A stretch of 64,000 nt of DNA from Candidatus Eiseniibacteriota bacterium. GTDB lineage: Bacteria; Eisenbacteria; RBG-16-71-46; SZUA-252. This document shows, piece after piece, positions 19,703 to 58,030 of the stretch. The notes beneath the pieces are model-generated. The model saw only the letters and a program-made list of their open reading frames with translations. It was not told the DNA's origin and made no database searches. The DNA lies in assembly GCA_036505295.1 (NCBI GenBank), contig DASXTQ010000042.1, positions 6,769-70,768 on the forward strand, in the 5' to 3' direction. How positions within the stretch are numbered: position 1 is the stretch's first letter; each line of letters begins with the position of its first letter. The position numbers and the translations under genes were made by a program.

Positions 19703-19731
19703 CGGGCCGGTACCTGGGATGTCGCTGGCGG

Positions 19732-36772: not shown

Positions 36773-37597
36773 GTGCCCTCCGGTATCCCCCGCGCCATTC
36801 TATTTGTGAAGCGATTCCTCCAGCTGCTGGTGCTCTTTTCGCTGGCGGCGCTCGCGCTCTGGACCACGCTGCTCCGACCCAAGCTCACCCCGGTGGAGCG
36901 CGGCCGCCGTCTCGCAGAGGCGACCGGATGCTTCGGGTGCCACGGCCCGGAGGGGATGGAAGGCACGGCGAATCCCGGGCGCGCCGAAAAAACGGTTCCC
37001 TCCTTCAAAGCACTCATGATGTACGCGAAAAGCGAGCAGGAGGTGCGCGAGTGGATCCGCGACGGTGTAACAACTGCGCGATCGAAGAGCCAGAGCTGGC
37101 GGGCGGATCGCGAGGCCGGCGCGCTACGAATGCCAGCCTTTGGAAAACGCCTCAAACCGCGCCAGATCGACGACCTCGTCGCGTTTGTGATGGTGGCCTC
37201 CGGCGAAAACTCCCCCGAGGACTCCCTCGCGCTCGCGGGGCGCGCCCGCATCCAGGCGCTCGGCTGCACGGGTTGCCATGGCCGTGACGGCCGGTACGCG
37301 CGGCCGAATCCGGGCTCGCTCAAGGGATACATTCCACCCTGGGACGGTGAGGACTTCGCCGAGCTGGTGCGGGACCGAAAAGAGTTCGACGAGTGGGTAC
37401 GCCGGGGCAATACCGGTCGATTCGAGACCAATCCGCTGGCGATGTACTTCCTGCGTCGAGCCGCGGTGCATATGCCGGCGTTTGAGCGGTTCCTGGAGCC
37501 CGGCGACCTCGACGCGCTCTGGGCTTACGTGGGCTGGCTCCGCGGACGTTCTAAGGGTGGGACGGCGTCCGACGGGCCACCACCAGAATCTCCGTAA
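36773..37597 (+). CDS. Dihaem c-type cytochrome
   Basis: Two CxxCH motifs (CFGCH, CTGCH). N-terminal TM anchor. Exact start uncertain (ATG 36773 or GTG 36809). Confidence 0.75.
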   Translation: MPSGIPRAILFVKRFLQLLVLFSLAALALWTTLLRPKLTPVERGRRLAEATGCFGCHGPEGMEGTANPGRAEKTVPSFKALMMYAKSEQEVREWIRDGVTTARSKSQSWRADREAGALRMPAFGKRLKPRQIDDLVAFVMVASGENSPEDSLALAGRARIQALGCTGCHGRDGRYARPNPGSLKGYIPPWDGEDFAELVRDRKEFDEWVRRGNTGRFETNPLAMYFLRRAAVHMPAFERFLEPGDLDALWAYVGWLRGRSKGGTASDGPPPESP

Positions 37598-44963: not shown

Positions 44964-47168
44964 TTGCGAGCGCATTGCCCTGAATCTGGTCACGCCCCAG
45001 AGGTAACAGGTCGGATCGGCGCCCTCAAGCTCGATGCATTCGCAGGACTGGGTCGTTGGCGAGAACTGGTTGCGCTCGGCTCCACCTTGATCGCCGGTTT
45101 AACCTCAAACCGAGAAAGCGAGGCCCTGGGTCGCGTTCACGGACTTACGGGCTTCGGCTATCTGAGACTTGGTGAAATGCGTCTGGCCGAACGCCACCTT
45201 CGAGCCGCCATTCACGTCTACACATGGGATTTGGATGACCTGCCTGCGGCGCTTCGTCAACAGCGGCGACTTTCACTTCTGTACCTCAGTTTGGGTCTCC
45301 TACGCCAATCCTGTTCTGAAATGGAGACCGCCATAGAGATTTCCGATAAGAATTCATGCACATCGGAATCTGGCATCCTGCGGGTCAACCTAGCCGTAGC
45401 GATGAGTAAGCTTGGTACCTTGGAGAAGGTACCCAAATACCTCGACGAGGCGGATGAACTCCTCAGGAGCGCTTCCCGCAAGAAATGGCTCTTGCTTTCA
45501 GCCCTCGTTCGGGCGAATTACCTACGCATCACAGGGCACCCCACGAAGGCGCTCGAAATCCTCGTGCCCGCACTTCAGATGACACGTGAGCAGCGTTACT
45601 CGCGTGAAGAGGCAATTGCTCTCGAATACATCGGCGATTGTTACCTCGCGAAGAGAGATTACAAGCAGGCGCTGGAGCAGTATGAAGGCGCGCTCAAGAT
45701 TGCGGAAGTGACCGCTCCTGATGGCGACCTTATACCCGAACTGAGCCACCGGATGGGCGAGACGTTCATCCGCCTCGGCGATCCGAACGCCGCGATTCTA
45801 CTTTGTGAGCGTGGATTCCGCGTGGCCCGAGCTTTGGGCGATCGGTACGAAGAATGTGCGACCCATCGCGTCTACGCCATGGCGCATCGTGCCGCGGGGA
45901 ATCCCAAGAAGGCGCTCCGTATCGTTGATGAAGGAATCGATCTTGGCAGACAGTACGATATTCCATACGAACTCGGCCGGGCGCTCACATGGGCAGGTGA
46001 GACGCGGTTGCAAGAGCTGGGCCCCGATGAGCAAGCACACGGTAGGCAGCAACTCTGGGAAGCGCGCGCGATATTCGAACGCATGGGACTGCTACCTTGG
46101 GTTCGATCGGTAGATCGCCTGCTCGGATTTGAATCCCAGCCCGAGGCTGCTCTCGATCAGCCGAGCATATCCGCGCTGGATAATCTCGGTGACCTTGATC
46201 GGGGTGCGCTTCGCTTCGGCATCGTTACTTGCAATCGTAAGGTTCGCGAAGCCGTGGAAATTCTGCAGAGCGTCGCACCGAGCCAGATTCCTGTCCTTAT
46301 CACGGGCGAGAGCGGAGTGGGTAAAGAGCTACTTGCTCAGGCGCTCCATCAGATGGGTCCTCGTCGAAAGGAACCCTTCGTACCGGTGAACTGTGGGGCC
46401 ATCTCGGTCAATCTTCTCGATAGCGAATTCTTCGGACATGAACGAGGGGCGTTTACCGGTGCCATTTCGTCCCGTGAGGGTCTGCTCGCCTCCTCCGACA
46501 AGGGGACCCTGTTTCTCGACGAGGTCGGGGAGCTTCCCTCACAAGTTCAGGCCGCCCTACTTCGGGTGTTGGAGACCGGCGAGTTGCGTGCGGTCGGACG
46601 GGACGACGTTAGGAAAATCGAGCTTCGAATCGTTGCGGCTACCAACACGAGGCTTGAGGATCTTGTCGATCGCGGGCTCTTCCGCCAGGACCTCTTCTAC
46701 AGACTCAACGGCATTCGCGTCACAATTCCTCCGCTCCGCGAGCGTGAAGAAGACATAAGGGCATTGTTCCGCTACTTCTGGTCCCAAGCGACCACGGCTG
46801 CAAAGAAGCGCCTCACGATCGAGGACGGCGTCGAGACGGTGCTCTGCGCGTATGACTGGCCCGGTAACGTGCGAGAGCTTCGGCACGAGATCGCTCGCGT
46901 CGTCGCGCTCGCACCCGATAGGTCATTGGTTCGAGGTGAGTCGTTCTTGCCCCAAGTCCAGCGAAAGGACATCGCCTCTCTTCGTCGGGATCGCGAACGG
47001 CGTGATGAAGTGGCGGAGGAACGGTTGCAGATTCTATCGGCTTTGCGCGCCCATCGCGGGAACAAGGCTGAGGCCGCCCGGAGCCTGGGAGGGATGAAAC
47101 GCACCACTCTGATCTACAAAATCGAGCGCTTGGGAATCCGACCCGAGGAGTACCAAGTTAAGGAATAG
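44964..47168 (+). CDS. Sigma54-dependent transcriptional activator (bEBP) with N-terminal TPR-like sensor domain instead of a receiver domain
   Basis: AAA+ sigma54-interaction domain (GESGVGKE, GAFTGA, ...VRELR). C-terminal Fis-type HTH. N-terminal about 400 aa of TPR-like repeats. 5' end probably continues upstream in another frame (see findings). Confidence 0.8.
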   Translation: MRAHCPESGHAPEVTGRIGALKLDAFAGLGRWRELVALGSTLIAGLTSNRESEALGRVHGLTGFGYLRLGEMRLAERHLRAAIHVYTWDLDDLPAALRQQRRLSLLYLSLGLLRQSCSEMETAIEISDKNSCTSESGILRVNLAVAMSKLGTLEKVPKYLDEADELLRSASRKKWLLLSALVRANYLRITGHPTKALEILVPALQMTREQRYSREEAIALEYIGDCYLAKRDYKQALEQYEGALKIAEVTAPDGDLIPELSHRMGETFIRLGDPNAAILLCERGFRVARALGDRYEECATHRVYAMAHRAAGNPKKALRIVDEGIDLGRQYDIPYELGRALTWAGETRLQELGPDEQAHGRQQLWEARAIFERMGLLPWVRSVDRLLGFESQPEAALDQPSISALDNLGDLDRGALRFGIVTCNRKVREAVEILQSVAPSQIPVLITGESGVGKELLAQALHQMGPRRKEPFVPVNCGAISVNLLDSEFFGHERGAFTGAISSREGLLASSDKGTLFLDEVGELPSQVQAALLRVLETGELRAVGRDDVRKIELRIVAATNTRLEDLVDRGLFRQDLFYRLNGIRVTIPPLREREEDIRALFRYFWSQATTAAKKRLTIEDGVETVLCAYDWPGNVRELRHEIARVVALAPDRSLVRGESFLPQVQRKDIASLRRDRERRDEVAEERLQILSALRAHRGNKAEAARSLGGMKRTTLIYKIERLGIRPEEYQVKE

Positions 47169-47509
47169 GTCGTCCCGAGAGGGCAGTCGCCACCCGCCTT
47201 TGTCCTCAATCTATTGCCGCTGAATAGATTATCCCCGATTTCTTGGGGTCAATGACCCCGACCGCCGCGTGAGCCAATTCTCGCTTTTTCTGGCTCTCAC
47301 GAGCCAGTCTGCCTAAGCCATTGTTCCGTATCAGGTAAGCCTCGATAACGGAGCCGCATCACGCTGTCCCCCGTTCATGTGGGGGAGATTCCCCCAATCT
47401 TTCCCACGGTCATCAGGCTGGCAGATTTTTGGCCGATTAGGGTGGTCCGTAAGTAACTGACTAGCAGCAAGTTGTGTTTGTCCGCGTCAAACCCGCTTCC
47501 GACGCCCTG

Positions 47510-47524
47510 TGGCACCTGCGTTGC
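47510..47524 (+). promoter_or_regulatory. Sigma54 (RpoN) -24/-12 promoter TGGCAC-N5-TTGC, 58 nt upstream of the lipoprotein ATG
   Basis: ctgTGGCACctgcgTTGCcctat is a perfect consensus match. Located directly downstream of the bEBP gene. Confidence 0.65.
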
Positions 47525-47581
47525 CCTATTGGCTGGCCAGGAATGAGGGCCACGGAGGGCGGTGAAACAAGGAGGCGGGCA

Positions 47582-47785
47582 ATGGAACGGACCAGGAACT
47601 TGAAAAACGGACTCAAGGCAGCGACGGTGGCGTTCTTCCTCGCGGCAGCTCTTCTCTCCACGGGTTGCAGCAACAACGCGCTGATGAACCCGCAGCCAGA
47701 CTTGGGCGCGCAGGGCAGCCAGACGGCGCACCCGACGGGTGGAAACGAACTCAACCCGACTGGCGGTAACGAGCTGAATCCGTAG
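47582..47785 (+). CDS. Small lipoprotein with tandem PTGGNELN repeats
   Basis: AAGGAGG RBS. Lipobox LLSTGC. C-terminal two exact 24-bp/8-aa repeats. Confidence 0.65.
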   Translation: MERTRNLKNGLKAATVAFFLAAALLSTGCSNNALMNPQPDLGAQGSQTAHPTGGNELNPTGGNELNP

Positions 47786-47791
47786 GCCCCG

Positions 47792-50700
47792 TCAAGATAC
47801 GGGCGCCTTTGGAGTGATCGCCGACAGAGTGGAGGACACATGAGGACTCCCGAGGTAGGTCTTGCGGTCGTCAGCATTGAGTCTACCGGCAATCTCTCGG
47901 ATGATCCTCAGAGCATGGGTCGAACGCGATTGCGCGGCCCTTACGTCCCCGCGTTGGGAAGCAAGCCTTCCCAATGCATAGCTCATTTTCCACGCGGCCT
48001 CCAACACTCCAGCAGTTTCCGCGTAGGCGAGAGCGCGCTCCATCGTCGGCACCAAGACGCTGGCACTGTCGATGTAGGGGTTCTCAGTTATGATCTCAGC
48101 CAGGGCTACACCTCCATGGATCTGGATGAGAACGAGACCTTGGGATTCGGCATTCAGAATCAGGCTGATGATCGCCCCTACCGCAGCATTTGGATCAAGT
48201 TTGGAATTCAACCTCTGCATTTCGATCTGGACCCCAGGTAGATCCTCCCAGTCCAACGTTTCGAGCAAGGCTTTCTCGGCCTTCGCGAGGAAACTCCTCG
48301 CTGCTTCTGGATCGCCCTGAATCGACGCAATTCTCCCGAGTAACCAATCCAACCTGGGCTTTACTTCAAGCGAGCCGTAATCATTCACAATTCGCTGAGC
48401 ATCCCGCACCAGCGTCTCCGCTTCGGCATATGAGCCAATGTGAAACAAGGTCAAAGCTTCCAGCTCCATAGCTTTGGCCATTTGGCCGAGGTCGTTCAAC
48501 GCCTCAGCCGTAGCCCTTCCGTGCCGCGCCATGTCGATCGCCTCCATATACTCAGCAAGGAGGATCCGGTTGATGGCAGCCCCTGAACAGGCGGCAACGA
48601 ATTCGAATGCACTTCCCATACGGACCGCCCAACGAGACGACAACGCGTGCTGATCAACCGCTTCGCGGATTCTGCCGAGTGCGTATAGGATTCCGCCACG
48701 ATTGGAGAGGATGCGAGCCTTGAATGAGTCGTAGCCGGACCTCTCCGCGATATCCCATGCTTCTGTGATCCAATCCAGTGATTCTGGCACCTTGCTTGAA
48801 TAGAACGCAGCTGTTGAAAGGGCATTGCAGATACGCATCCGCCAGTAATCGTTACAGTTGAATTCGAGCCCTCTTTCCAGGATCCGTGTGGCTTCTGCAC
48901 GCTCTCCCGTCCGTACCAGCGCTGCCCCAAGCCCATATGTCAGGGAGGCCAACTCATCATCGATGCCGGGCGTGCCCTCGTAAAGCTCCAGGATCTTGCG
49001 AATCCTCTCTATCGCTGCACGCCGAGTCTCACCCCCTCGGTGCCGCCACTCTATCTCTGCGAGTCCCGCGTGGCTGCGCAGAAGCAAGACGGGATCAGGA
49101 TTCCCACGTGCGAGATCTATCGCGCTTGAAAACCGCACGCCGGCCTCATCTAGTCTCCCCAACGATGCGAATATGACGCCCAATTGGTACTCACGTGATG
49201 CCCTTAGCGGCCCGGAATCTGGTTCGGTCTCCCAGGGAAATTGCTCGCGCAGATAAGACTCTGCTCGTTTGTCATCGCCGGCCTTATGGAGAATCTCGGA
49301 AAGCATTAGGGATACTTCGCGCGCCAATTTGATGTCCTTGGTTTCAGTTACGATTCCAAGGCAGCGCTCAAGTCGGGAACCGGCTCGGCGATAATCCCCC
49401 CGCTTCGCAGCCTCCTCTGAGGCCCATAGGCCTTCGCGCAAGGCCCCGGAATCTGGTTGATAGGCCAAAGCGAGGTCCGCTCTTTCCTCCCTACTCAGGG
49501 GTCCATCTCCCAAGGCGAGTAGGGAGAGCGCGCAGCGCTCTCGCAGCACCTCCCCGGCCCTCTCGCGAACGACCACGCGTATACCTTCAGAAGAGATCTT
49601 CACTCGCGATCCAGACAACCTAATCCATCCCTTCGCGTGTAACCCGGCGAGTAGGTCAGGCCCCAGATCACGGTCGAATATCAATTCACTCTGGGTTGAA
49701 GGAACCCCCGAAGGCAGGATCTCTAGAGTTACGAGGGTCCGCTTCTCATTCTCGCTTAGCCGATCCCAGGCCGAAGACCAGGGATCCAGGATCCCAGGAA
49801 TCTGGATTGACTGAATTTGCTGATTCTCCCGGAAGAACCAACAGTTCTCGCGACGTGCAATGAGGTGCTGCTTGATGAGCGAAAGTATCGCGGCGCTAAG
49901 GGCCCGGCCGTTCCCACCTGAGATCTCGTTGATCTTAGAAACAAGAGGCCTTTCAAATCGGGAACCGCCCAGATATCCATTTACAAATCCAGGGATATCG
50001 ACCAGAGAAAACGGTGGCAGTATTAGTTCGCTCTCAAATGATTCGAGCTGGGTGATAGGAATTGTTGTAAGAGCGACGAGCAGTACCCTTCTTCTCTCGG
50101 ATCGCTCAAGAGAAAGGGCCCACAAGTACCGCGCTAGCGGGCGAAATACCCCAACCATCGCATCTGCATCATCGGAAGATGGCGTTGTCCAGACGATGAT
50201 AGAATCATCGCTCGCTGAGGCCCACAGTTCCTCCGCGATGCCAGCAGGGCTCTCACCGCTCTCGGTCACAGCGTTCCCCAATAGCTGACGAATCTGGACC
50301 GCCAGGGTTGAATCCGTAGCGAGAGATAATTGAACAGGCCGAGCACCCCTGGAGATCGCCCGTTGCGCGACCTCCTCCATCAGGGCCCTTTTCCCAATCC
50401 CCGGTTCCCCTGTGACATAGAGCAAAGTCGGCGTGCCGGGCTCCTCCGAGAACAGCAATCTCTCGATCTCCGCAATTTCCTTCTCGCGTCCGACGAGCTT
50501 CCCGCCAAGGATCTCACCAATGCGATCCTCGACGCCGAAGCCCTCCATGAATTCGTCGGCGCTGCCCTGCCTGAGCCCGGGCTGGCGCTCCAGCGCGCGC
50601 ATGACGACACGCTCGAGATCCACGGGCACTCGAACGCCATGCACGCCCGGCGAAGGAACCCAACCCTCGAGTTGCCCCGAGATCACTTCTCGTACGGTAC

Positions 50701-51298
50701 GTCCCTCGAAAGGATGCTTGCCGGTAAGGGCTTCATACGCCATCACGCCGACCGAATACAGATCACTCCGAACATCGGCGGGCGCGCCCTCCCAGACTTC
50801 GGGAGCCGCATACCCGGGCGTCCCGGAGAGTCCAGCCGCGGATCCGCCGCTCCCTCCCATTCCGACGTCGGTGATCTTCACGACCCCACCGGCGCCCAAC
50901 AGAATGTTTCCGGGCTTCAAGTCCCCGTGGATTTCTCCGTGGCAGTGGAGGTGCGCGAGCCCGCGTAGGAGGCTTGTCAAAATGCGCCGGACCTCATCCG
51001 CGGACTGCGGCTCGCCCATTTTCCGTACCCAATCGGCCCCCTCGATGAACTCCATCGTGTAGTAGGCCTCGCCGGAGGGCAGCGCGCCCCAGTCGAAGAC
51101 CTGGATCAGGTTCTCGTGGCGTATTTGGCGGAGGGTGTCGAACTCGCGTCGAAGGAACGCTGATTCGGCGGGTGTGACCAGCTTCAACGCAAGCTCGCGA
51201 TCGCGTATCGAGTCATAAACCCGATACACGCGGCTCGAGCCCCCCTCACCGAGGAGGGAACGGACTTCGTAACGCTTTGGAATCGACGGGGATGTCAT
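47792..51298 (-). CDS. Multidomain Ser/Thr protein kinase - AAA/STAND ATPase - TPR repeat protein
   Basis: Hanks kinase motifs (VYRVYD...ALKLV, HGDLKPGNILL, DVGMGG, GTPGYAAPE). P-loop GEPGIGKR. Extensive C-terminal TPR-like repeats. 1168 aa. Confidence 0.85.
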   Translation of the reverse strand: MTSPSIPKRYEVRSLLGEGGSSRVYRVYDSIRDRELALKLVTPAESAFLRREFDTLRQIRHENLIQVFDWGALPSGEAYYTMEFIEGADWVRKMGEPQSADEVRRILTSLLRGLAHLHCHGEIHGDLKPGNILLGAGGVVKITDVGMGGSGGSAAGLSGTPGYAAPEVWEGAPADVRSDLYSVGVMAYEALTGKHPFEGRTVREVISGQLEGWVPSPGVHGVRVPVDLERVVMRALERQPGLRQGSADEFMEGFGVEDRIGEILGGKLVGREKEIAEIERLLFSEEPGTPTLLYVTGEPGIGKRALMEEVAQRAISRGARPVQLSLATDSTLAVQIRQLLGNAVTESGESPAGIAEELWASASDDSIIVWTTPSSDDADAMVGVFRPLARYLWALSLERSERRRVLLVALTTIPITQLESFESELILPPFSLVDIPGFVNGYLGGSRFERPLVSKINEISGGNGRALSAAILSLIKQHLIARRENCWFFRENQQIQSIQIPGILDPWSSAWDRLSENEKRTLVTLEILPSGVPSTQSELIFDRDLGPDLLAGLHAKGWIRLSGSRVKISSEGIRVVVRERAGEVLRERCALSLLALGDGPLSREERADLALAYQPDSGALREGLWASEEAAKRGDYRRAGSRLERCLGIVTETKDIKLAREVSLMLSEILHKAGDDKRAESYLREQFPWETEPDSGPLRASREYQLGVIFASLGRLDEAGVRFSSAIDLARGNPDPVLLLRSHAGLAEIEWRHRGGETRRAAIERIRKILELYEGTPGIDDELASLTYGLGAALVRTGERAEATRILERGLEFNCNDYWRMRICNALSTAAFYSSKVPESLDWITEAWDIAERSGYDSFKARILSNRGGILYALGRIREAVDQHALSSRWAVRMGSAFEFVAACSGAAINRILLAEYMEAIDMARHGRATAEALNDLGQMAKAMELEALTLFHIGSYAEAETLVRDAQRIVNDYGSLEVKPRLDWLLGRIASIQGDPEAARSFLAKAEKALLETLDWEDLPGVQIEMQRLNSKLDPNAAVGAIISLILNAESQGLVLIQIHGGVALAEIITENPYIDSASVLVPTMERALAYAETAGVLEAAWKMSYALGRLASQRGDVRAAQSRSTHALRIIREIAGRLNADDRKTYLGSPHVSSTLSAITPKAPVS

Positions 51299-51398
51299 GA
51301 GAAAGGGCGCGCCTAGCCGGCCGGACGCGGAGCTAGACCCTACGCCCGGCTCGGCGAGGCGTCAACCAAGGCGCGGGCTGGCGCGGACAAGGGCTCAT

Positions 51399-51989
51399 TC
51401 ACCCGCCCGCCGCTATGGATTCAAGGCGAGCTTTGACCGCGGGCCACTCATCGTCCGTAATGCTGAAATAGACCGTGTCGCGCACGACCCCCCGGTCGCT
51501 GATCGCATGCTTACGAAGGGTACCTTCCTCCTTCGCACCAATTCGGAGAATCGCGTCTCGCGAACGACGGTTGAGCGCGTTCGTCTTGAGCTCGACGCGC
51601 CGGCAGTGCCAAGTGTCAAAGGCGTGGCTCAGCATCAGGTATTTCGCCTCGGAATTCACGTGGGTGCGCTGAAAGGTTCGGCCGACCCAAGTCCATCCGA
51701 TCTCGACCCGGCCGTGGTTGGGCTCGATGCTGCCGAAACGGGTGCACCCGAGAACTCGCCCGGTCACGCGATCCACCGTCGCGAACGGGAGCGCCTTCCT
51801 CTCGGCCTGCGCGCGGAGCGCCTCCTCCAGATACCGCAGAAGATCGTCACGTGTGTCCACAACATTGAGCGTCCAGCGCCATAGCTCGGGATCCAGGCCG
51901 ATTTCAGCCAGCCCCTCGAAATGCCGATCGAGCGTGAGCGGCTCCAGGCGGATGCGGATGCCCTGCAGGGTTACGGGGATGATTTCCAT
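51399..51989 (-). CDS. GNAT-family N-acetyltransferase (RimJ/RimL-like)
   Basis: Start MEIIPVTLQGIRIRLEPL. Acetyltransferase-3-type core (RVELKTNALNRRSRDAILRIGAKEEG). Confidence 0.7.
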   Translation of the reverse strand: MEIIPVTLQGIRIRLEPLTLDRHFEGLAEIGLDPELWRWTLNVVDTRDDLLRYLEEALRAQAERKALPFATVDRVTGRVLGCTRFGSIEPNHGRVEIGWTWVGRTFQRTHVNSEAKYLMLSHAFDTWHCRRVELKTNALNRRSRDAILRIGAKEEGTLRKHAISDRGVVRDTVYFSITDDEWPAVKARLESIAAGG

Positions 51990-52221
51990 GGGTGGCCCGA
52001 TATAGCCAGATGCAAGGGGCAACGTCCCCATCATTTTGCGAGGCCTGGCACGCGGCAAGCCGGAACTCCAAGCCCGACAACGGGGCCGACGGCCTACCCG
52101 TCCGGCACGCGCCATGCGAATTGACCGGTGCGAGTCCCTCCCTGAAGTTGGCCACTCCAACTTCGACGGATTGACGCAAGCGTACCCTAGGCGGCAAGGC
52201 AGAAGGGAATCGGAGGAGATC

Positions 52222-52605
52222 ATGAGGACTGTACTGAGAAGCGAAGGTGGTTTCACCCTGATCGAGCTGGTGATCGTCATCGTAATCCTTGGCATTCTGG
52301 CGTCGGTCGCGATCCCGAGATACGAGGACATGCGCGAGCAGGCGCGGGTGTCCACGCTCAAGGGGCAGCTGGGTTCGATCCGCTCCGCGGTTGCGATTCA
52401 GTACGCCCGCAACGCGCTGACCAGCAGCGCCGGGTTCCCCACGCTCGACGGAACGATTTTCGCGGATGCCCGTGTCCCCAAAGAGCCGGTGATGAACTCG
52501 AACGCGGTAAAGACGACCGCCGGTGTCGACAACGCGGGTGGCTGGCAGTACACCCAGACGAGCGGCATGGTGAAGGCCAACCTGAACGCCTATTCAAGCT
52601 ACTGA
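52222..52605 (+). CDS. Type IV pilin / pseudopilin-like protein with prepilin-type N-terminal methylation motif
   Basis: GGAGG RBS. N-terminal GGFTLIELVIVIVILGILASVAIPRY (class III signal peptide, G-F-T-L-I-E). Confidence 0.75.
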   Translation: MRTVLRSEGGFTLIELVIVIVILGILASVAIPRYEDMREQARVSTLKGQLGSIRSAVAIQYARNALTSSAGFPTLDGTIFADARVPKEPVMNSNAVKTTAGVDNAGGWQYTQTSGMVKANLNAYSSY

Positions 52606-52718
52606 TAAACGCCGTCGAGGGCGCGGGCGAGCGGCGGAGCGCAGCCGTTCGCCCGATTTTTTTGCTCGCCGGACGGGGCAGGGCCACGGCATGTATCGCC
52701 CGAATGCCCCGGTGACTG

Positions 52719-53726
52719 CTACTTCCGCTTGGCGCGTTGCCCGGTGGGCGGGCCCTTGAGCGCTTCGTCCGGTCGCCTCGCGGGCCTTTGAATCACCTTC
52801 GCTACGGCCTTGGCCTCCCGCATCACGGAGAGCTGAAACACATCGGGTCGCGCGTAATGGCCAGCGACGTCGAGCATCCATCGGGCGCCCGCCAGCGTGC
52901 GCGGGTCGACTTCGGCGTAGAGGATGCCTTCCTCTTCGTGGAGTGGGCCGGCGATGAATTTTCCTTCCGGATCGATGATCGCGCTGTCCCCGGCGTTGAT
53001 CCATTGTCGCTCTTCCGGGTAGAAGCGCTTGTGTCCGTACCGGTCGGGGATGTCGTTCCGGTGAAAGGCCTGGCAGGAGTTGACCACCCACACGCCCCCT
53101 TCCCTGGCGATGTGTCGCACGGTGGAGAGCCAGGGCTCGCCGCGGTCCCAAGTCGATGCCACATGGATGCGCGAGCCCCACGCGTACATGGCGTAGCGCG
53201 CGAGCGGCATGTAGTTCTCCCAGCAGATGAGGCCGCTCATCTTGCCGATCGGCGTGTCGTAAACCTGTAACGTGCTCCCGTCCCCTTGGCCCCACATGAG
53301 ACGCTCGCCGCCGGTGGGAACGAGCTTCCGATGGCGGCCGACGAGCTTCCCCTTCGGGTCAACGAAAAGGAGCGTGTTGTAGAGCGACGCGCCGCTCGCC
53401 TCGGTGTTCCGCTCGTTCACGCCGATCACGAGAAAGACGCCGGCATCACGCGCCTCATCGCAGAGACGGCGGGTGGCTTCGCCCGGGATCTCCACCGAGT
53501 TCTCGACCAGCTCTGCGTAGAGCTCATCGATGAGGGGCTCGCGGGCAGGGAGCGTCCAGACCCAATCGGGATAACCGGGGATGAGAGCCTCCGGGAACAC
53601 GACGAGCTTCGCGCCGGCCGCGGCCGCTTCGCGCAGGTAGCGGCAGGCCTTCTCGACGGTACCCTCGCGACTCAGGAAGACGGGTGCGATCTGAACGGCG
53701 GCGATTTTGTAAGGCGCGGATGTCAC
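52719..53726 (-). CDS. Nitrilase/cyanide hydratase-family carbon-nitrogen hydrolase
   Basis: Catalytic triad context FPE ... RHRK ... GLICWEN. GTG start with GGAGG RBS immediately after the upstream gene stop. Confidence 0.75.
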   Translation of the reverse strand: MTSAPYKIAAVQIAPVFLSREGTVEKACRYLREAAAAGAKLVVFPEALIPGYPDWVWTLPAREPLIDELYAELVENSVEIPGEATRRLCDEARDAGVFLVIGVNERNTEASGASLYNTLLFVDPKGKLVGRHRKLVPTGGERLMWGQGDGSTLQVYDTPIGKMSGLICWENYMPLARYAMYAWGSRIHVASTWDRGEPWLSTVRHIAREGGVWVVNSCQAFHRNDIPDRYGHKRFYPEERQWINAGDSAIIDPEGKFIAGPLHEEEGILYAEVDPRTLAGARWMLDVAGHYARPDVFQLSVMREAKAVAKVIQRPARRPDEALKGPPTGQRAKRK

Positions 53727-53739
53727 GAGACCTCCGCCT

Positions 53740-54849
53740 CTAGGAAATCGCGCAGCGGTTCGCGCCGGCCTCGAGCTCCGTGGGATCTCCTTGCGGAAAG
53801 GCGCCCGACTCGTTGAGGCGTACGATCTCGAGGTGATGGGGCGGCGTCGCGGGAATGCGCGACAGAAGGGTCTCGACGAAGCCTTCCTCGGTTGCGCGCA
53901 GCATCTCAACCTGCCGGATCACTTCGGCCAGCGCCGCTCCGCACGGCTTCCCGTCGAACGGGATCGGCTCGCTCGTGTGGCATGGAAGAATCCACGTGTC
54001 GGGCGGCAGCTTGACGATCCGCTGCAGCGTTCCATAGAGCGCGTGTGCCCTCTGCCGCGCCTCGGCCGCGTTCGCCGCCAGGTCGGGGCGCCCCACAGCC
54101 CCGGGGAAGAGCGTGTCGCCGGTCAAGAGCGCCCGCCCATCAACCAGATAGCACGTGCTCTCCAGCGTGTGACCGGGAGTGTGGAGCACCTGGATTGCGG
54201 ATGTGCCGATCGTGATGGTGTCGCCTTCCTTGAGCGGGAGGAACGGATACGTGATGCGGTCCTGAGCGGGGAGATAGATCTTCGCCTGACATCGTTCGGC
54301 GAGCGGCCGCGAGCGCGAGAGATGGTCCGCGTGAACGTGGGTATCGATCACGTGGGTGATGGTGAATCCCCGCTCCTTCGCGATCCGAAGATAGATGTCC
54401 GGATCGACCGATGCATCGACGACCGCGGCTTCGCTTCCGCTGCCGACGATATAGGAGAGACAGCCCTTTCCCGTCCGGCGCACCTGAATGATCTGCGCGT
54501 TCGAGCGAATCGGAGTCACCTCCGCGAGATTCCACGCAAGGCTCCACGCCTTCATTCCACCCTTCAGCGAGAGCGCCTGAACGCCGCGCTCTCGAAGCGC
54601 GCGCACAGCCAGGAGGCTGGTGTTCCCTCTGGCGCAAACCGCAACGACCGGCTGCCCGGGCGGCAGCGACACGCCGGCGAACGGCGAGGCGCTACTCGTG
54701 CGCAGCGCCACGTGCGGATCGAGGTGGAGACTTCCGGGGATGCTCCACTCCTCCCGCTCCACGGCGGGGCGAATATCAAGCACCGTCACCGGGCGGCCGC
54801 TCTCGAGCCAATCCCTGAGCGCATCTACACCGATGTCAATCGACTCCAC
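53740..54849 (-). CDS. Rhodanese domain fused to MBL-fold (persulfide dioxygenase/ETHE1-like) metallo-hydrolase
   Basis: Rhodanese active-site loop CARGNTS. MBL motifs HVHADH and HTPGHT. Confidence 0.7.
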   Translation of the reverse strand: MESIDIGVDALRDWLESGRPVTVLDIRPAVEREEWSIPGSLHLDPHVALRTSSASPFAGVSLPPGQPVVAVCARGNTSLLAVRALRERGVQALSLKGGMKAWSLAWNLAEVTPIRSNAQIIQVRRTGKGCLSYIVGSGSEAAVVDASVDPDIYLRIAKERGFTITHVIDTHVHADHLSRSRPLAERCQAKIYLPAQDRITYPFLPLKEGDTITIGTSAIQVLHTPGHTLESTCYLVDGRALLTGDTLFPGAVGRPDLAANAAEARQRAHALYGTLQRIVKLPPDTWILPCHTSEPIPFDGKPCGAALAEVIRQVEMLRATEEGFVETLLSRIPATPPHHLEIVRLNESGAFPQGDPTELEAGANRCAIS

Positions 54850-55012
54850 AGATGCCTCCGATGGAACAACGCTGGCCTCGTCGGGACGAAGGGTTCGGCC
54901 CGCCTATGATAGGCGACCCGCGGTCCCTGGGGGAAGGTCGATGCTCATGCCCCGATTCGCGGTGGCGGACTGCCCGTAAATAGCCTAGGGTAGCGGTGTT
55001 GGACTCGAAGGA

Positions 55013-56113
55013 ATGGAGCCCCCCAAAGATCATGCGATGACCGGCGCGCGCGCGCGGTTCCTCCCTTACGCTCCCGGTCTCGTTCTCGCCGTAGCCTGCG
55101 CGATCACCGCCCGCCTGCTGCACGGGCTCCTTCCCCCCAAGCCCGCCGCCGTACTCGGCGAGGTCGTGGTCGCGGTGCTCCTCGGCCTCATCATCGGAAA
55201 CGCAATCGCGCTTCCGCGTCTTTTCGCACCGGGAATCCGGTTCTCCTTCCATTCGCTTCTCCGCGTGGCCATCGTGATCCTCGGAGCCCAATTCTCATTC
55301 ATGCAGGTCGTGGCCATCGGCGGGAAAGCCGTGGTCATGATCGTGATCTTGATGACGCTCGCCCTCACCGTCGCCCACGTCCTGGGCCGCGTCGCCGGTG
55401 TTCCTCGCAGGCTGGCCACCTTGATCGGCGTGGGCACCGCGGTCTGCGGCAACACCGCGATCACGGCGACGGCACCGGTCATCCGGGCCGAGGACGAGGA
55501 AGTTTCGTTCGCCGTTGCGACCAACACCCTCTTCGGTACAGCCGCGGTATTCCTTTATCCGATGCTGGGACACTGGATCGGGCTTTCGAGCGCGGCCTTC
55601 GGCACCTGGGCGGGCACCGCGGTCAACGACACCTCCCAGGTAGTCGCGACGGGCTTCGCGTACAGCGACATGGCCGGAAGGGTCGCGACGGCCGTGAAGC
55701 TCACACGGAACGCGCTCATGGGCGCGGTCATTCTGGTGATCGGGCTGATCTACGCCCGGGATGCGGCCGTCGGGGCGAGCGGCGGCTCCACCCAGGGCAC
55801 GTTCGCGACCTGGACCCGCGTCCGACAGTCCATCCCCGGGTTTGTGCTCGGTTTTCTGCTCCTGGCCCTCCTCAACACCGTGGGAGCGATCGCCCGGATG
55901 GGAATGCTCATCGGAAGGGACCTTTCTCACGACCTCCAGACGATCTCGCGGTTTTTGATCCTCGTCGCGCTAGCGGGGGTGGGTCTCAGCACGCGCGTGA
56001 GCGCCATGAAACGGATCGGCGCGACCCCGTTCCTTGTTGGATTCGCCACGGCGGCGACGACCGCCGTCGCAAGCTATCTATTGATTCGTTGGCTGGGTCC
56101 GGCCGGAGGTTGA
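55013..56113 (+). CDS. YeiH/UPF0324-family putative sulfate/sulfite exporter (integral membrane)
   Basis: About 10 TM helices and characteristic YeiH-family sequence. Confidence 0.7.
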   Translation: MEPPKDHAMTGARARFLPYAPGLVLAVACAITARLLHGLLPPKPAAVLGEVVVAVLLGLIIGNAIALPRLFAPGIRFSFHSLLRVAIVILGAQFSFMQVVAIGGKAVVMIVILMTLALTVAHVLGRVAGVPRRLATLIGVGTAVCGNTAITATAPVIRAEDEEVSFAVATNTLFGTAAVFLYPMLGHWIGLSSAAFGTWAGTAVNDTSQVVATGFAYSDMAGRVATAVKLTRNALMGAVILVIGLIYARDAAVGASGGSTQGTFATWTRVRQSIPGFVLGFLLLALLNTVGAIARMGMLIGRDLSHDLQTISRFLILVALAGVGLSTRVSAMKRIGATPFLVGFATAATTAVASYLLIRWLGPAGG

Positions 56114-56739
56114 TCGGGCAGGCCGCCGGCCGAATCTGGAATGGACGACCCTGCCGCAGGGGTGCGCCCTCCACTCCGAAGATACGGCGCAAGCCTTTGG
56201 TGAATTCTCTGAAACGGCTGCATCAGGAGCATTCCGAAAAAAACAATCGCCACGGTAACCGCGAAGGTCCAAACCCAATGACGCAGGCGGAAGCGCCGGG
56301 CGGTCGGGGCTGCGATGATGAGCCCGAGAATGGCCGCAATCAGAACCATCGCGTCGAAGCTCCCGCGCTGCCAGTAGACGTCGTCGAGGTGAAGCCACAT
56401 CCCGAACTCGTCGAACGTCAGGGCGAGCCCGACGCCGTAGAGAATCGCCGCCCGGGCGATACCACGGCTGTCCGGACGGAGGAAGATCAGGTAGGCGCCC
56501 ACCCCAACCAGGATGAAAATCCCGTAGTTCAGGTGATGAACGTGGGTTTGCCCGAAGCGGAGATAGAAGTCACGCATGAACCCGATGGCCATCATGAGGG
56601 CCATGCTACGAGCAATCGCGAATGTGAGGATGAAGGCAACGAACACACGGCGCGCGAGCCGTGTCGGACCCATGGGTTGTTCTTCGGGCGGAAGGTCGTT
56701 CGGCTCGATCTCGCGAGGGGCGTCGGTGATCACGGCCAC
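56074..56739 (-). CDS. Hypothetical integral membrane protein
   Basis: Multiple hydrophobic helices. No assignable family. Confidence 0.45.
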   Translation of the reverse strand: MAVITDAPREIEPNDLPPEEQPMGPTRLARRVFVAFILTFAIARSMALMMAIGFMRDFYLRFGQTHVHHLNYGIFILVGVGAYLIFLRPDSRGIARAAILYGVGLALTFDEFGMWLHLDDVYWQRGSFDAMVLIAAILGLIIAAPTARRFRLRHWVWTFAVTVAIVFFGMLLMQPFQRIHQRLAPYLRSGGRTPAAGSSIPDSAGGLPDQPPAGPSQRINR

Positions 56740-56840: not shown

Positions 56841-57437
56841 GTGAGAGCCGCGACGATGGAACACACGAGGGTGCTGAGCCCGGAAGCCATGTGGACGGCG
56901 TTCCGCCGGGGGGATTCGCGGTACGACGGCCGCTTCGTGACCGCCGTGCGCACGACCGGCATCTTCTGCAGGCCGTCCTGTACCTGCCGCAAGCCCCGCC
57001 TGGAGAACGTCCGCTTCTATCGCTCTCCCAACGATGCGGCCCGCGCGGGCTACCGCCCCTGCAAGAGGTGCCGCCCCGAGTTGCGGGGGGGGCCGGCCGA
57101 GGCAGACGGTGCGATGGTCGCGAAGGCGCTCGGGTTCATGCGAGCCCATCTGGAGTCCCAGCTTTACGCGAAGGACATCGCCGCCGCGGTCGCGGTCAGC
57201 CCTTCGCACTTCGCGCGACGGTTCCGCGCAACGGACGGACGAACGCCCATGCGCGCCCTCGCCGATCTCCGCGCCGAAAGAGCTGAAACCTTGCTCCGCC
57301 AGGGAACGATCGGCACCCTCGACGCTGGATTCGCGGCCGGGTTCCAAAGCACGTCCGCATTCACTCGGGCATTTCGAAGAAGGACCGGGCTGCCGCCCGC
57401 CTCGTGGCGGCGATCCTTGAAAGGAGAACGAAGATGA
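56841..57437 (+). CDS. ada: Ada-family methylphosphotriester-DNA methyltransferase/AraC-type transcriptional regulator (N-terminal Ada part)
   Basis: Ada Zn-binding Cys4 motif ([11 protein letters not shown]...YRPCKRCRP) followed by AraC HTH. Confidence 0.8.
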
Positions 57438-58030
57438 CACGCAAGATCTCTGGCACGGGGCACCGAAAGGTGGTTCGCCCCCGCGAAGCACGGATTGACA
57501 TGGCGACGGTGCGCACGCGTTTGGGGACGTTTGCCGTGGCGGCCACGCCTCGCGGCCTCGCGGCCCTATTCCCGCTCCCGCGCGGACCGGTCACCTCCAC
57601 GCGCGCCGGGCGCGATCCCGCGCTCGCCCGCCGAATCCGCGGGGGTGCTCGACTCGTGATTCATCGCGGCCGCGATTCCTACCCTCCCGCGCTCGCCCGC
57701 GCGGCCGCCGCGCTCCACGCCTACGCTTCCGGTAAGGTACGCGCGGTCCGCCCGGTGCTCGACCTGGACGGAACGCCGTTTCAACGGGCGGTGTGGAAGC
57801 GCCTCTGCGCCATTCCCACGGGGAAGACGATCTCCTACGGAGCGCTCGCGGCTTCGATCGGGCGGCCCCGCGCGGCGCGCGCCGTGGGCGCGGCCGTTGG
57901 AGCGAACCCGGTGCCGATTCTCGTGCCATGCCACCGGGTCATCGGCCAGGACGGCTCGCTCACCGGGTTCGGCTTGGGGCTGCCGATGAAACGCGCCCTG
58001 CTGCTCCATGAGGGAAATCGTACGAGGTAA
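57434..58030 (+). CDS. ogt: Methylated-DNA--protein-cysteine methyltransferase
   Basis: Active-site PCHRV motif. 4-bp overlap with ada. Confidence 0.85.

What the first reader, a model, noticed from the sequence alone, without database searches (positions are those of the whole stretch)
52719..56113. Sulfur/cyanide detoxification-like module: rhodanese-persulfide dioxygenase fusion, nitrilase-family hydrolase and YeiH exporter
A rhodanese (CARGNTS) fused to an ETHE1-like MBL domain (HVHADH, HTPGHT) is followed 14 bp later by a nitrilase/cyanide-hydratase family enzyme (E-K-C triad, CWEN). Opposite them is a YeiH-family putative sulfite/sulfate exporter. Rhodanese and cyanide-hydrolysing nitrilases both act on cyanide, and PDO-rhodanese fusions oxidise persulfides to sulfite/thiosulfate that YeiH-type proteins are proposed to export. 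The co-location suggests a coupled CN-/reactive-sulfur pathway.
Basis: partly seen in the sequence, partly recalled or inferred. Interest (0 to 1): 0.5.

Follow-up and report, generated by a model that had tools for sequence, protein, structure and literature searches.

The report
Sulfur-oxidation gene pair beside unrelated nitrilase
The three genes are real, but only the rhodanese-persulfide dioxygenase fusion and the YeiH-type membrane protein plausibly work together (oxidising reactive sulfur and exporting sulfite); the nitrilase sits next to them because of gene loss in this lineage, and the closest relative lacks it.

Summary
All three genes exist as described. They are a 369-aa rhodanese + metallo-beta-lactamase (MBL) fusion (53740-54849, -), a 335-aa branch-1 nitrilase starting 13 nt downstream (52719-53726, -), and a divergent YeiH-family membrane protein (55013-56113, +).

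The MBL domain is of the persulfide dioxygenase (PDO) type. Its best sequence and fold matches are CstB, 3tp9, bacterial and human ETHE1 and BpPRF, all ahead of glyoxalase II. Across 40 genomes, its relatives sit next to ArsR-rhodanese regulators, MFS, YeeE/YedE and DsrE genes.

The nitrilase link fails the conservation test.
- None of 80 fusion loci carries a nitrilase.
- None of 79 nitrilase loci outside the immediate lineage carries a fusion or YeiH.
- In the sister contigs that carry both genes, one to four glycosyl-transfer genes separate them.
- Two contigs about 92% identical to the window lack exactly the 1,063 bp that hold the nitrilase, yet keep the fusion and YeiH.

The nitrilase is not a cyanide dihydratase. 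It is sister to plant NIT4 at 42% identity, and its recurring partner is a GNAT acetyltransferase.

YeiH pairing is also confined to this lineage, but it is biochemically sensible, because YeiH confers sulfite resistance.

Verdict: an ordinary sulfur-detoxification pair of an uncharacterised architectural variant. The coupled cyanide pathway is not supported.

The parts
53740..54849 (-). Rhodanese (N-terminal, Cys72 in a CARGNT loop) fused to a CstB-type persulfide dioxygenase domain (HVHADH 171-176, His227, Asp245, GRPDL 253-257), ending in a conserved C-terminal tail LEAGANRCAIS with Cys366
   Evidence: Pfam. PDB sequence matches: 3tp9 2e-28, CstB 3r2u 8.5e-26, M. xanthus PDO 4ysb 8e-21. AF2 model pLDDT 89.5. 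The top 22 Foldseek hits are all PDOs. Family invariants from A1/A5. Tail motif conserved out to Halobacteria.
55013..56113 (+). YeiH-family (PF03601, putative sulfite/sulfate exporter family) membrane protein, divergent from the fusion
   Evidence: Pfam 232.7 bits. TIGR00698 148 bits, below its 232.6 cutoff. Present next to the fusion in the window, L169, L081, L083, L084 and L087/88; absent in L082 and L171.
54850..55012 (.). 163-bp divergent intergenic region. It holds a conserved TATGAT/TATCAT box about 50 nt upstream of the fusion start and a conserved CGGAGG ribosome-binding site. No conserved operator palindrome was found.
   Evidence: Alignment A4 of five lineage members. The 13-bp palindrome GCCTATGATAGGC occurs only in the window. 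The promoter scan gave nothing above background.
52719..53726 (-). Branch-1 nitrilase (E46-K134-C168). It is co-transcribed with the fusion in this genome but is not part of a conserved module with it.
   Evidence: Pfam and NCBIfam. PDB matches: NIT4 5.7e-66, Nit6803 2.7e-57, CynD 2e-52. NJ tree. Presence/absence polymorphism against L169/L170.
53727..53739 (-). 13-nt spacer between the fusion stop codon and the nitrilase GTG start, with a GGAGG Shine-Dalgarno sequence and no terminator
   Evidence: Sequence read directly.
52624..52655 (.). GC-rich hairpin with a flanking A/T run, lying between the convergent nitrilase and pilin-like genes. In L169/L170 it follows the fusion stop codon directly.
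   Evidence: Terminator scan: 12-bp stem with 10 GC pairs. Junction sequences.
51399..51989 (-). GNAT (Acetyltransf_3) acetyltransferase, 196 aa. It is the recurrent partner of this nitrilase clade rather than of the fusion.
   Evidence: Pfam. It is 61-62% identical to the GNATs next to nitrilase homologues in L085/L086. GNATs also lie near the nitrilase in L090, L108, L131, L171 and L172.
52222..52605 (+). Prepilin-type (N_methyl) 127-aa protein on the opposite strand, between the nitrilase and the GNAT. It is a syntenic landmark only.
   Evidence: Pfam N_methyl. Same position in L169, L170, L171 and L172.
56074..56739 (-). 221-aa membrane protein with no family match, convergent with YeiH and overlapping its 3' end. 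It is gained and lost together with YeiH in the lineage.
   Evidence: No Pfam or NCBIfam hit. Co-occurrence pattern.

Best explanation
Two independent units lie side by side.

Unit 1 is the rhodanese-PDO fusion plus the divergent yeiH gene, and it is a reactive-sulfur detoxification pair. Its proposed steps are inferred from characterised homologues.
- The rhodanese Cys72 takes sulfane sulfur from low-molecular-weight persulfides or thiosulfate.
- The non-haem-iron PDO domain oxidises persulfide sulfur with O2 to sulfite, or to thiosulfate as CstB does.
- The YeiH-family membrane protein removes the toxic sulfite.

Unit 2 is the nitrilase, a NIT4-related enzyme whose natural substrate is unknown. 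Its more deeply conserved neighbour is the GNAT acetyltransferase 0.7 kb downstream. It became the gene immediately after the fusion, and so co-transcribed with it, because a GT2/LAB_N/PMT_2 glycosylation cassette that separates the two genes in sister genomes was lost. A still closer sister has lost the nitrilase as well.

Shown here: gene identities, PDO-type fold, family-wide sulfur gene context, the lineage-restricted and interrupted synteny, and the precise nitrilase presence/absence polymorphism.
Inferred: enzyme activities, the exported species, and co-regulation of the fusion and yeiH.
For: PDO identity. The best solved homologues are CstB/3tp9 and bacterial PDOs, ahead of GloB. The AF2 model is confident (pLDDT 89.5). 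Foldseek ranks 1-22 are all PDOs, and glyoxalase II appears only from rank 23. The protein shares the GRPDL motif with CstB/3tp9.

Sulfur context. Among 143 flanking ORFs from 40 genome loci, the commonest families are MFS_1 (13), Rhodanese (10) with ArsR HTH_5 (10), DsrE_2 (9), Sulf_transp/YeeE (8) and DUF6691 (7). There are no CN_hydrolase and no PF03601 hits among the 25 most frequent families listed. In five loci of L001-L009 tested by Pfam (L001, L002, L003, L005, L009), an MFS gene follows the fusion, and three of them (L002, L003, L005) also carry an ArsR-rhodanese gene.

YeiH function. A Salmonella yeiH deletion mutant is sulfite-sensitive (PMC12880088). The H. denitrificans YeiH gene is induced 526-fold by thiosulfate and is treated as the sulfite exporter (PMC12423496).

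Precedent. The bigR operon combines a DUF442-ETHE1 fusion (Blh) with a TauE sulfite exporter (PMC5823870).

Nitrilase independence.
- tblastn found no nitrilase, YeiH or other window neighbour in the 80 fusion loci.
- Of 80 nitrilase loci, only L089 (78% identity) resembles the lineage arrangement. None of the others has the fusion or YeiH, including 0 of the 30 with at least 1.5 kb of flank on each side.
- Sister contigs carry GT2-LAB_N-PMT_2 (L081, L082, L083, L084, L087/88) or PMT_2 alone (L171) between the fusion and the nitrilase.
- L169 and L170 align to window 50000-52671 and 53735-55975 at about 92% identity and lack 52672-53734, while keeping a 95%-identical fusion and a 94%-identical YeiH.
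- GNAT and PNPOx genes recur next to nitrilase homologues of 56-67% identity.
Against: In this genome the nitrilase is almost certainly co-transcribed with the fusion, since there is a 13-nt spacer and no terminator, so the two are co-expressed here whatever their history. The fusion...nitrilase order persists across contigs whose fusion proteins are 65-75% identical, which could reflect weak selection rather than inertia.

The YeiH-fusion link is also lineage-restricted. It appears among none of the 25 most frequent neighbour families of 40 outside loci, and YeiH is absent in L082 and L171. No regulator, SQR or sulfite-sensing YeiE homologue lies nearby. No activity has been measured for any of the three proteins.
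Confidence: 0.65

Rival explanations
1. One reading: one coupled cyanide/reactive-sulfur pathway. The rhodanese converts CN- plus sulfane sulfur to thiocyanate. The nitrilase hydrolyses cyanide or beta-cyanoalanine, whose synthesis from cysteine + HCN releases H2S. The PDO oxidises the resulting persulfide, and YeiH exports the sulfite.
For: The fusion and nitrilase are co-transcribed in the window. Both genes lie on the same strand within 1-6 kb in eight related contigs. The closest characterised relative of the nitrilase is the beta-cyanoalanine enzyme NIT4 (E 5.7e-66, 41.8% identity, sister in the NJ tree). Rhodanese domains fused to PDOs do show thiosulfate:cyanide sulfurtransferase activity in vitro (Blh, PMC5823870).
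Against: L169/L170 keep the fusion and YeiH but lack precisely the nitrilase. Unrelated glycosyl-transfer genes intervene in all other lineage members that have both genes. No co-location was found in the 80 fusion loci or in any of the 79 nitrilase loci outside the lineage arrangement. Unrelated flanking genes are just as syntenic, so the linkage does not exceed background synteny. The nitrilase lies outside the CynD group, and 42% identity to NIT4 does not fix its substrate. No cysteine synthase/beta-cyanoalanine synthase was identified among the window genes examined with family searches.
Confidence: 0.08
2. The MBL domain is a hydrolase (glyoxalase II or thioesterase type) rather than a dioxygenase, and the protein has no role in persulfide oxidation.
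For: The best NCBIfam model is GSH_gloB (TIGR03413, 91 bits). The full HxHxDH motif, including the last His, is retained, as it is in binuclear-zinc hydrolases.
Against: The TIGR03413 score is far below its 200.8 cutoff. Sequence and fold searches both rank PDOs above every glyoxalase II. ETHE1-type PDOs also keep HxHxDH: the characterised M. xanthus PDO has DTHVHADH, identical to the window. The fused rhodanese has an active Cys, and the family-wide neighbourhood is sulfur-related.
Confidence: 0.1
3. The fusion serves sulfur assimilation from thiosulfate (as proposed for BpPRF) rather than detoxification, and YeiH is an unrelated neighbour.
For: BpPRF precedent, as cited in PMC9163753. Relatives neighbour YeeE/YedE-type thiosulfate importers and DsrE_2. 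YeiH is missing in L082 and L171.
Against: YeiH is divergently adjacent in six of eight lineage contigs. The ArsR-rhodanese regulator and MFS efflux-type partners in L002, L003 and L005 fit an inducible detoxification unit.
Confidence: 0.15

Closest known systems
Staphylococcus aureus CstB (PDO-Rhod-Rhod; PDB 3r2u) and the Alicyclobacillus homologue 3tp9
   Same: It is the closest PDO domain by sequence (E 1e-25 to 1e-28) and by fold (Foldseek E 1e-19). It shares the VGRPDL motif and the helical region after the MBL core, and the PDO is fused to a catalytic rhodanese.
   Different: The domain order is reversed: a single N-terminal rhodanese, with no C-terminal rhodanese domains. The last His of HxHxDH is kept, whereas CstB has Phe. 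CstB's C201-G202 'glutathione-mimic' loop (PMC12934615) has only an offset Cys303-Gly304 in the window, and this is not conserved in the family. Instead the family has an invariant Cys130 and a C-terminal ExGxNxCA tail.
Blh / bigR operon of Xylella fastidiosa and Agrobacterium tumefaciens (DUF442-ETHE1 fusion + TauE sulfite exporter + ArsR-type BigR)
   Same: An N-terminal sulfurtransferase is fused to a C-terminal PDO, next to a membrane protein for sulfite removal. More distant relatives of the window fusion also have an ArsR-type regulator (PMC5823870).
   Different: The sulfurtransferase is a PF00581 rhodanese, not DUF442. NCBIfam Blh model NF040641 scores 61.8 bits against a 625 cutoff. 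The exporter candidate is YeiH rather than TauE. There is no regulator in the window.
Burkholderia phytofirmans PRF (PDB 5ve3-5) and ETHE1-type PDOs (4ysb, 4chl, 8zbd, 9g8t)
   Same: The same PDO fold and metal-binding motifs. DTHVHADH is identical to M. xanthus PDO.
   Different: Lower similarity (E 1e-15 to 1e-21). ETHE1-type enzymes have GRTDF where the window has GRPDL. In PRF the rhodanese is C-terminal.
Plant NIT4 beta-cyanoalanine nitrilase/hydratase (PDB 6i00)
   Same: It is the best-scoring solved homologue of the nitrilase (226 bits, 41.8% identity). The catalytic triad and CWEN motif are shared. The environmental clade that holds the window enzyme is sister to NIT4 in the NJ tree.
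   Different: The identity is too low to transfer substrate specificity. No beta-cyanoalanine synthase context was seen. The bacterial clade's recurrent neighbours are GNAT and PNPOx genes.
YeiH of Salmonella/E. coli and Hden_0834 of Hyphomicrobium denitrificans
   Same: Same Pfam family PF03601, matched over the full length. Family members are needed for sulfite tolerance or are induced during thiosulfate oxidation (PMC12880088, PMC12423496).
   Different: The score is below the TIGR00698 subfamily cutoff (148 against 232.6). There is no adjacent LysR-type YeiE regulator; the divergent partner is the PDO fusion instead.

Membership tests
Persulfide dioxygenase (ETHE1/CstB branch of the MBL superfamily) | MBL fold with an HxHxDH motif and the His/His/Asp iron ligands | tested here: met
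   H171-V-H173-A-D175-H176, H227 (PGHT) and D245 (GDTLF) are invariant in 49 homologues and align to the same motifs of CstB, 3tp9 and M. xanthus PDO.
Persulfide dioxygenase (ETHE1/CstB branch of the MBL superfamily) | Closer to characterised PDOs than to glyoxalase II or other MBL hydrolases | tested here: met
   phmmer gives PDOs 2e-28 to 2e-15 against GloB 2e-13 to 1e-9. Foldseek ranks 1-22 are PDOs, and GloB appears from rank 23.
Persulfide dioxygenase (ETHE1/CstB branch of the MBL superfamily) | Fe(II)- and O2-dependent oxidation of persulfide to sulfite or thiosulfate | not testable with these tools
   This needs an enzyme assay.
Persulfide dioxygenase (ETHE1/CstB branch of the MBL superfamily) | Genomic association with sulfur-handling genes | tested here: met
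   ArsR-rhodanese, MFS, DsrE_2, YeeE/YedE and DUF6691 genes dominate the neighbours in 40 loci.
CstB-type PDO-rhodanese fusion | C-terminal rhodanese domain(s) after the PDO | tested here: not met
   The rhodanese is N-terminal (residues 9-103). The protein ends 20 residues after the region that aligns to CstB.
CstB-type PDO-rhodanese fusion | Cys-Gly (C201-G202) active-site loop used for self-S-sulfonation | tested here: inconclusive
   The window has C303-G304, three residues from the aligned position. That Cys is replaced by R, I, L or V in family members.
Blh bifunctional sulfur transferase/dioxygenase (NF040641) | Score above the curated cutoff; DUF442-type ST domain | tested here: not met
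   61.8 bits against a 625 cutoff, with only the MBL part matching. The ST domain is a PF00581 rhodanese.
Catalytic rhodanese | Active-site Cys at the head of a six-residue loop | tested here: met
   C72-A-R-G-N-T. Cys72, Gly75 and Ser78 are invariant.
Branch-1 nitrilase (true nitrilases) | Glu-Lys-Cys triad and CWEN motif; closest to nitrilases rather than to amidase, NAD-synthase or Nit branches | tested here: met
   E46, K134 and C168 are invariant. Nitrilases and cyanide dihydratases/hydratase score 1e-41 to 6e-66, while other branches score 1e-14 or worse.
Nit1C / Nit6803 family nitrilase (TIGR04048) | Score above the cutoff and the seven-gene Nit1C cluster | tested here: not met
   234.9 bits against a 502.6 cutoff. 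No radical-SAM or AIR-synthase neighbours are present.
Cyanide dihydratase / cyanide hydratase | Groups with CynD/CHT | tested here: not met
   35.9% identity to CynD. The NJ tree puts CynD with the Rhodococcus, NitA and Nit6803 enzymes, apart from the window clade. CHT is the weakest nitrilase hit (1e-41).
NIT4-type beta-cyanoalanine nitrilase | Orthology to NIT4 and beta-cyanoalanine activity | tested here: inconclusive
   It is sister in a midpoint-rooted NJ tree at 41.8% identity. No bootstrap was done, no bacterial NIT4 references were available, and activity is untestable here.
YeiH / putative sulfate(sulfite) exporter family | Full-length PF03601 match | tested here: met
   232.7 bits, residues 21-342 matching model positions 1-303 of 304.
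YeiH / putative sulfate(sulfite) exporter family | TIGR00698 subfamily cutoff; adjacent YeiE LysR regulator | tested here: not met
   148 bits against a 232.6 cutoff. No LysR gene lies next to it.
   No co-location was found in the 80 fusion loci or in any of the 79 nitrilase loci outside the lineage arrangement. The arrangement is interrupted by 1-4 genes in sister contigs. The nitrilase is absent in the closest relatives.

The most novel reading that the evidence does not exclude
The fusion represents an uncharacterised, widespread PDO architecture, found in bacteria and Halobacteria. In this reading it does not need a low-molecular-weight thiol co-substrate and carries its own substrate cysteines.

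The evidence for built-in cysteines:
- Cys130 is invariant. By extending the CstB alignment, it sits at the position of CstB Gln13, which is the Thr of the canonical PDO Thr-Asp-water network.
- Cys366 is invariant and lies in a flexible C-terminal ExGxNxCA tail (pLDDT about 57).

The tail would act as a swinging arm. It would pick up sulfane sulfur from rhodanese Cys72, present it to the iron site and release sulfite or thiosulfate. This is analogous to the self-S-sulfonating Cys201 loop just described for CstB, but built differently.
Probability: 0.25. Interest if true: 0.5.

Novelty: new variant of a known kind. Interest (0 to 1): 0.25.

Why it matters
The value is mostly corrective. Tight adjacency, even likely co-transcription, would tempt an annotator to infer a cyanide/sulfur pathway. 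Comparison with sister genomes shows the adjacency results from stepwise gene loss.

What remains useful is a family-level observation. N-terminal-rhodanese PDO fusions with an invariant C-terminal cysteine tail are common in soil bacteria and haloarchaea, are annotated only as 'MBL fold metallo-hydrolase', and pair with different exporters or importers in different lineages (MFS, YeeE/DsrE, YeiH). They are a ready test case for whether the built-in-cysteine mechanism recently proposed for CstB is general. They also add a genomic hint that YeiH proteins handle PDO-derived sulfite.

Tried and rejected
1. An SQR partner. The only Pyr_redox_2 gene examined with family searches (34843-36156) is a type II NADH dehydrogenase: it matches NDH-2 structures at 5e-46 and SQR at 1e-13 over the N-terminal third only.
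2. A shared operator in the fusion/yeiH intergenic region. Only a -10-like box and the ribosome-binding site are conserved. The 13-bp palindrome is specific to the window.
3. The promoter scan gave nothing above the shuffled background.
4. The Rfam scan of 43.5-56.5 kb gave no hits.
5. A look-up of the window's own nitrilase (P0121) in the contig index found it was not on record.
6. Filing the fusion under Blh and the nitrilase under Nit1C was rejected, because both score below the curated cutoffs.
7. I considered whether the nitrilase works with the GT2/LAB_N/PMT_2 cassette, for example as a deformylase. This was rejected because nitrilase relatives at 67% identity or less never have those genes and the window lacks the cassette entirely.
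8. A literature search for haloarchaeal rhodanese-PDO fusions found no papers. Podar 2005 gives no context for this nitrilase clade.
9. The AF2 model could not be used to measure Cys-to-iron distances, because coordinates are not returned.

Full report
**Observation**

- The fusion ORF is 53740-54849 on the minus strand and encodes 369 aa. It has a Pfam Rhodanese domain (residues 9-103) and a Lactamase_B domain (126-291). The quoted motifs CARGNTS, HVHADH and HTPGHT start at residues 72, 171 and 223.
- The nitrilase ORF runs mechanically from 53909. Its real start is the GTG at 53726, which gives 335 aa. That is identical in length and sequence to an NCBI-annotated protein from a 'Candidatus Eisenbacteria' MAG contig of 84.7 kb (P0121).
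- The spacer between the fusion's TAG and that GTG is 13 nt. It contains GGAGG and no hairpin, so in this genome the two genes are almost certainly co-transcribed.
- YeiH (55013-56113, plus strand, 366 aa) matches PF03601 over its full length at 233 bits. It is divergent from the fusion across 163 bp.

**What the fusion is**

The best solved homologues of the MBL domain are persulfide dioxygenases.
- Alicyclobacillus 3tp9 scores 2e-28, S. aureus CstB (3r2u) 8.5e-26, Myxococcus PDO (4ysb) 8e-21 and BpPRF 2e-15.
- Glyoxalases II score 2e-13 or worse.
- An AlphaFold2 model built on 49 homologues is confident, with pLDDT 89.5 and pTM 0.89.
- Its first 22 Foldseek hits in the PDB are all PDOs (CstB, 3tp9, bacterial and human ETHE1, BpPRF, SdoA, Beggiatoa and Pseudomonas PDOs). 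Glyoxalase II starts at rank 23.
- The HxHxDH motif, His227 and Asp245 are invariant. The VGRPDL segment is of the CstB type.
- The rhodanese has the catalytic Cys72 in a six-residue loop.

NCBIfam places the protein in no curated equivalog. GSH_gloB scores 91 bits against a 200.8 cutoff, and Blh scores 62 against 625.

The family is large. One search found 7,475 proteins with E at or below 0.001, and nearly all of the 120 best have the same two-domain architecture. It has two further invariant cysteines.
- Cys130 lies in RRTGKGCLSY.
- Cys366 lies in a C-terminal tail. A tail motif of the form LE-x-G-x-N-x-C-A recurs in nearly all full-length relatives I extracted, including Halobacteria that are only 30-35% identical overall. 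In the model the tail is the least confident part (pLDDT about 57), which fits a mobile segment.

**Context of the fusion family**

A scan of one genome per species with the family alignment returned 80 loci, 30-56% identical to the window protein.
- tblastn with the window's nitrilase, YeiH and six other neighbours found none of them within ±8 kb in any locus.
- A Pfam census covered 143 flanking ORFs from 40 loci with full-length fusions. It gave MFS_1 (13), Rhodanese (10) together with ArsR HTH_5 (10), DsrE_2 (9), Sulf_transp/YeeE-YedE (8) and DUF6691 (7). No CN_hydrolase and no PF03601 hit appeared among the 25 most frequent families listed.
- In five of the nearest bacterial relatives tested by Pfam (L001, L002, L003, L005, L009), an MFS gene follows the fusion. 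Three of them (L002, L003, L005) also carry an ArsR-rhodanese gene.

The family therefore belongs to sulfur metabolism. It typically sits beside a membrane transporter and a sulfane-sulfur-type regulator, but the transporter differs between lineages.

**Context of the nitrilase**

The enzyme is a true branch-1 nitrilase.
- E46, K134 and C168 are invariant.
- Nitrilases and cyanide dihydratases/hydratase score 1e-41 to 6e-66, while other CN-hydrolase branches score 1e-14 or worse.
- It is below the Nit6803/Nit1C cutoff (235 against 503 bits).
- I built an NJ tree with five solved reference enzymes. The window protein falls in a large environmental clade that is sister to plant NIT4 (41.8% identity). 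That clade includes Q6RWG2 from a nitrilase discovery screen. It is separate from CynD (35.9%), the Rhodococcus/NitA enzymes and Nit6803.

So it is not in the cyanide dihydratase group, and it is too far from NIT4 to assign a substrate.

A metagenome scan returned 80 nitrilase loci at 45-78% identity.
- Only the closest (L089, 78%) shows the lineage arrangement.
- None of the other 79 has the fusion or YeiH. This includes 0 of the 30 with at least 1.5 kb of flank on both sides.
- What recurs beside homologues of 56-67% identity is an Acetyltransf_3 GNAT and a PNPOx-like gene (L085, L086, L090, L108, L117, L131).
- The window's own GNAT (51399-51989, minus strand) is 61-62% identical to those GNATs.

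**The lineage itself**

Contigs whose fusion is 65-75% identical share extended synteny with the window. The shared order is MFS - Ogt - Ada/AraC - 221-aa membrane protein - YeiH, then divergently the fusion, with the Ser/Thr kinase and TPR-sigma54 activator on the far side.

Between the fusion and the nitrilase these contigs carry extra genes.
- L081, L082, L083, L084 and L087/88 carry GT2, LAB_N and PMT_2 (ArnT-like) genes, and L081 has one more.
- L171 carries PMT_2 alone.

The window has no homologue of these three genes anywhere.

Most telling are two contigs from different soil samples, L169 and L170. They align at about 92% nucleotide identity to window 50000-52671 and 53735-55975 and lack exactly 52672-53734, which is the nitrilase gene. 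Their fusion (95% identical) ends in a stop codon followed directly by the hairpin and pilin-like gene that follow the nitrilase in the window. The YeiH of L169, cut by the contig end, is 94% identical over 321 residues.

The window nitrilase clusters with those of the sister contigs. The simplest history is therefore an ancestral order fusion - glycosylation cassette - nitrilase - pilin - GNAT - kinase, followed by loss of the cassette in the window's line and further loss of the nitrilase in L169/L170. The fusion-YeiH pair thus persists without the nitrilase, and the direct adjacency is a derived accident.

YeiH and the 221-aa membrane protein are also absent together from L082 and L171. The YeiH link is therefore not obligatory either.

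**Mechanism proposed**

- Shown: gene identities, PDO fold, sulfur context of the family, and the history of the locus.
- Inferred from characterised homologues: the rhodanese Cys72 accepts sulfane sulfur from persulfides or thiosulfate. The iron centre oxidises persulfide sulfur with O2 to sulfite or, as in CstB, thiosulfate. A YeiH-family protein disposes of sulfite.
  - Salmonella yeiH deletion mutants are sulfite-sensitive (PMC12880088).
  - The H. denitrificans YeiH gene is induced 526-fold by thiosulfate and is regarded as the sulfite exporter (PMC12423496).
- The nitrilase most likely acts, perhaps with the GNAT, on an unidentified nitrile. Its co-expression with the fusion in this one genome is incidental.

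**Comparison with known systems**

The pair works like the bigR operon (Blh, a DUF442-ETHE1 fusion, plus a TauE sulfite exporter; PMC5823870) and like the cst operon. It is a member of neither.
- The sulfurtransferase is a PF00581 rhodanese rather than DUF442.
- The PDO is CstB-like, but the rhodanese is at the opposite end.
- The exporter candidate is YeiH.
- CstB's catalytic Cys201-Gly202 loop (PMC12934615) is not a family feature here. The window has an offset Cys303-Gly304, which is replaced in relatives.
- Extending the CstB alignment by one residue places the invariant Cys130 at the position of CstB Gln13, the residue that replaces the Thr of the canonical PDO hydrogen-bond network. This is an inference, not a structural measurement.

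Together with the invariant tail Cys366, this suggests a built-in-cysteine mechanism that could be tested.

**Novelty and score**

The finding as proposed, a coupled cyanide/sulfur module, is not supported. What is present is an ordinary kind of system (PDO-sulfurtransferase plus exporter) in an uncharacterised architectural variant, next to an unrelated nitrilase. Interest is low to moderate (0.25). The most novel reading still open is the swinging-arm cysteine mechanism for this fusion family (probability about 0.25).

**Dead ends**

- The candidate SQR is an NDH-2.
- No conserved operator was found.
- There were no Rfam hits.
- The window nitrilase is not in the contig index.
- No literature was found on haloarchaeal rhodanese-PDO fusions.

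Noticed in passing
window 56074-56739 (-): A 221-aa multi-pass membrane protein with no Pfam or NCBIfam match overlaps the 3' end of yeiH convergently. In sister contigs it is present whenever YeiH is present (L081, L083, L084, L087/88) and absent when YeiH is absent (L082, L171), which suggests a two-gene unit.
   Followed up: partly
window 53740-54849 (-), residues 130 and 360-367; L001-L049: The fusion family has an invariant Cys130 (RRTGKGCLSY) and a C-terminal ExGxNxCA tail. The tail is conserved from Bacteroidota, Chloroflexota and Gemmatimonadota to Halobacteria at 30-35% overall identity, and it has low pLDDT (about 57) in an otherwise confident model.
   Followed up: partly
L081, L082, L083, L084, L087/88, L089, L171 (between fusion and nitrilase): A GT2 - LAB_N - PMT_2 (ArnC/ArnT-like lipid-linked glycosylation) cassette, often with overlapping start and stop codons, separates the fusion and the nitrilase in sister genomes. 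It is completely absent from the 64-kb window.
   Followed up: yes
window 51399-51989 (-); L085, L086, L090, L108, L117, L131: An Acetyltransf_3 GNAT, and often a PNPOx-like flavoprotein, recur beside nitrilases of this environmental clade. This hints at a nitrilase-GNAT detoxification pair with an unknown substrate.
   Followed up: partly
window 19897-22128 (+): A second CN_hydrolase domain in the window belongs to a 743-aa glutamine-dependent NAD synthetase (NadE). It is unrelated to the finding.
   Followed up: no
window 10593-15697 (-): Suf Fe-S assembly genes: a class-V aminotransferase/SufS-like gene, two SufB/D genes and an ABC ATPase.
   Followed up: no
window 17046-20152 (-): Adjacent LuxC-like acyl-CoA reductase and LuxE-like acyl-protein synthetase genes, whose mechanical ORFs overlap by about 270 bp.
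   Followed up: no
window 34843-37597 (+): A type II NADH dehydrogenase (not SQR), followed by a 147-aa unknown protein and a cytochrome c protein, downstream of a divergent ECF sigma/anti-sigma pair (33347-34710).
   Followed up: partly
window 44964-51298: A TPR-sigma54 activator (44964-47168, +) and an 1,168-aa Ser/Thr kinase-AAA-TPR protein (47792-51298, -) form a pair that is syntenic in L082 and L171; L172 shows the kinase. The region has distinctly lower GC (0.56-0.59) than the rest of the window (about 0.65).
   Followed up: no
window 56841-58030 (+): Overlapping Ada (Zn-binding + AraC HTH) and Ogt methyltransferase genes, followed by an MFS_3 transporter. The block is syntenic with the fusion locus in all sister contigs that extend far enough.
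   Followed up: no
L083 11583-12635: The nitrilase gene call on this ENA contig aligns to all other nitrilases in two reading frames, so it is frame-shifted around residue 190. This is probably a long-read assembly error or a pseudogene.
   Followed up: no
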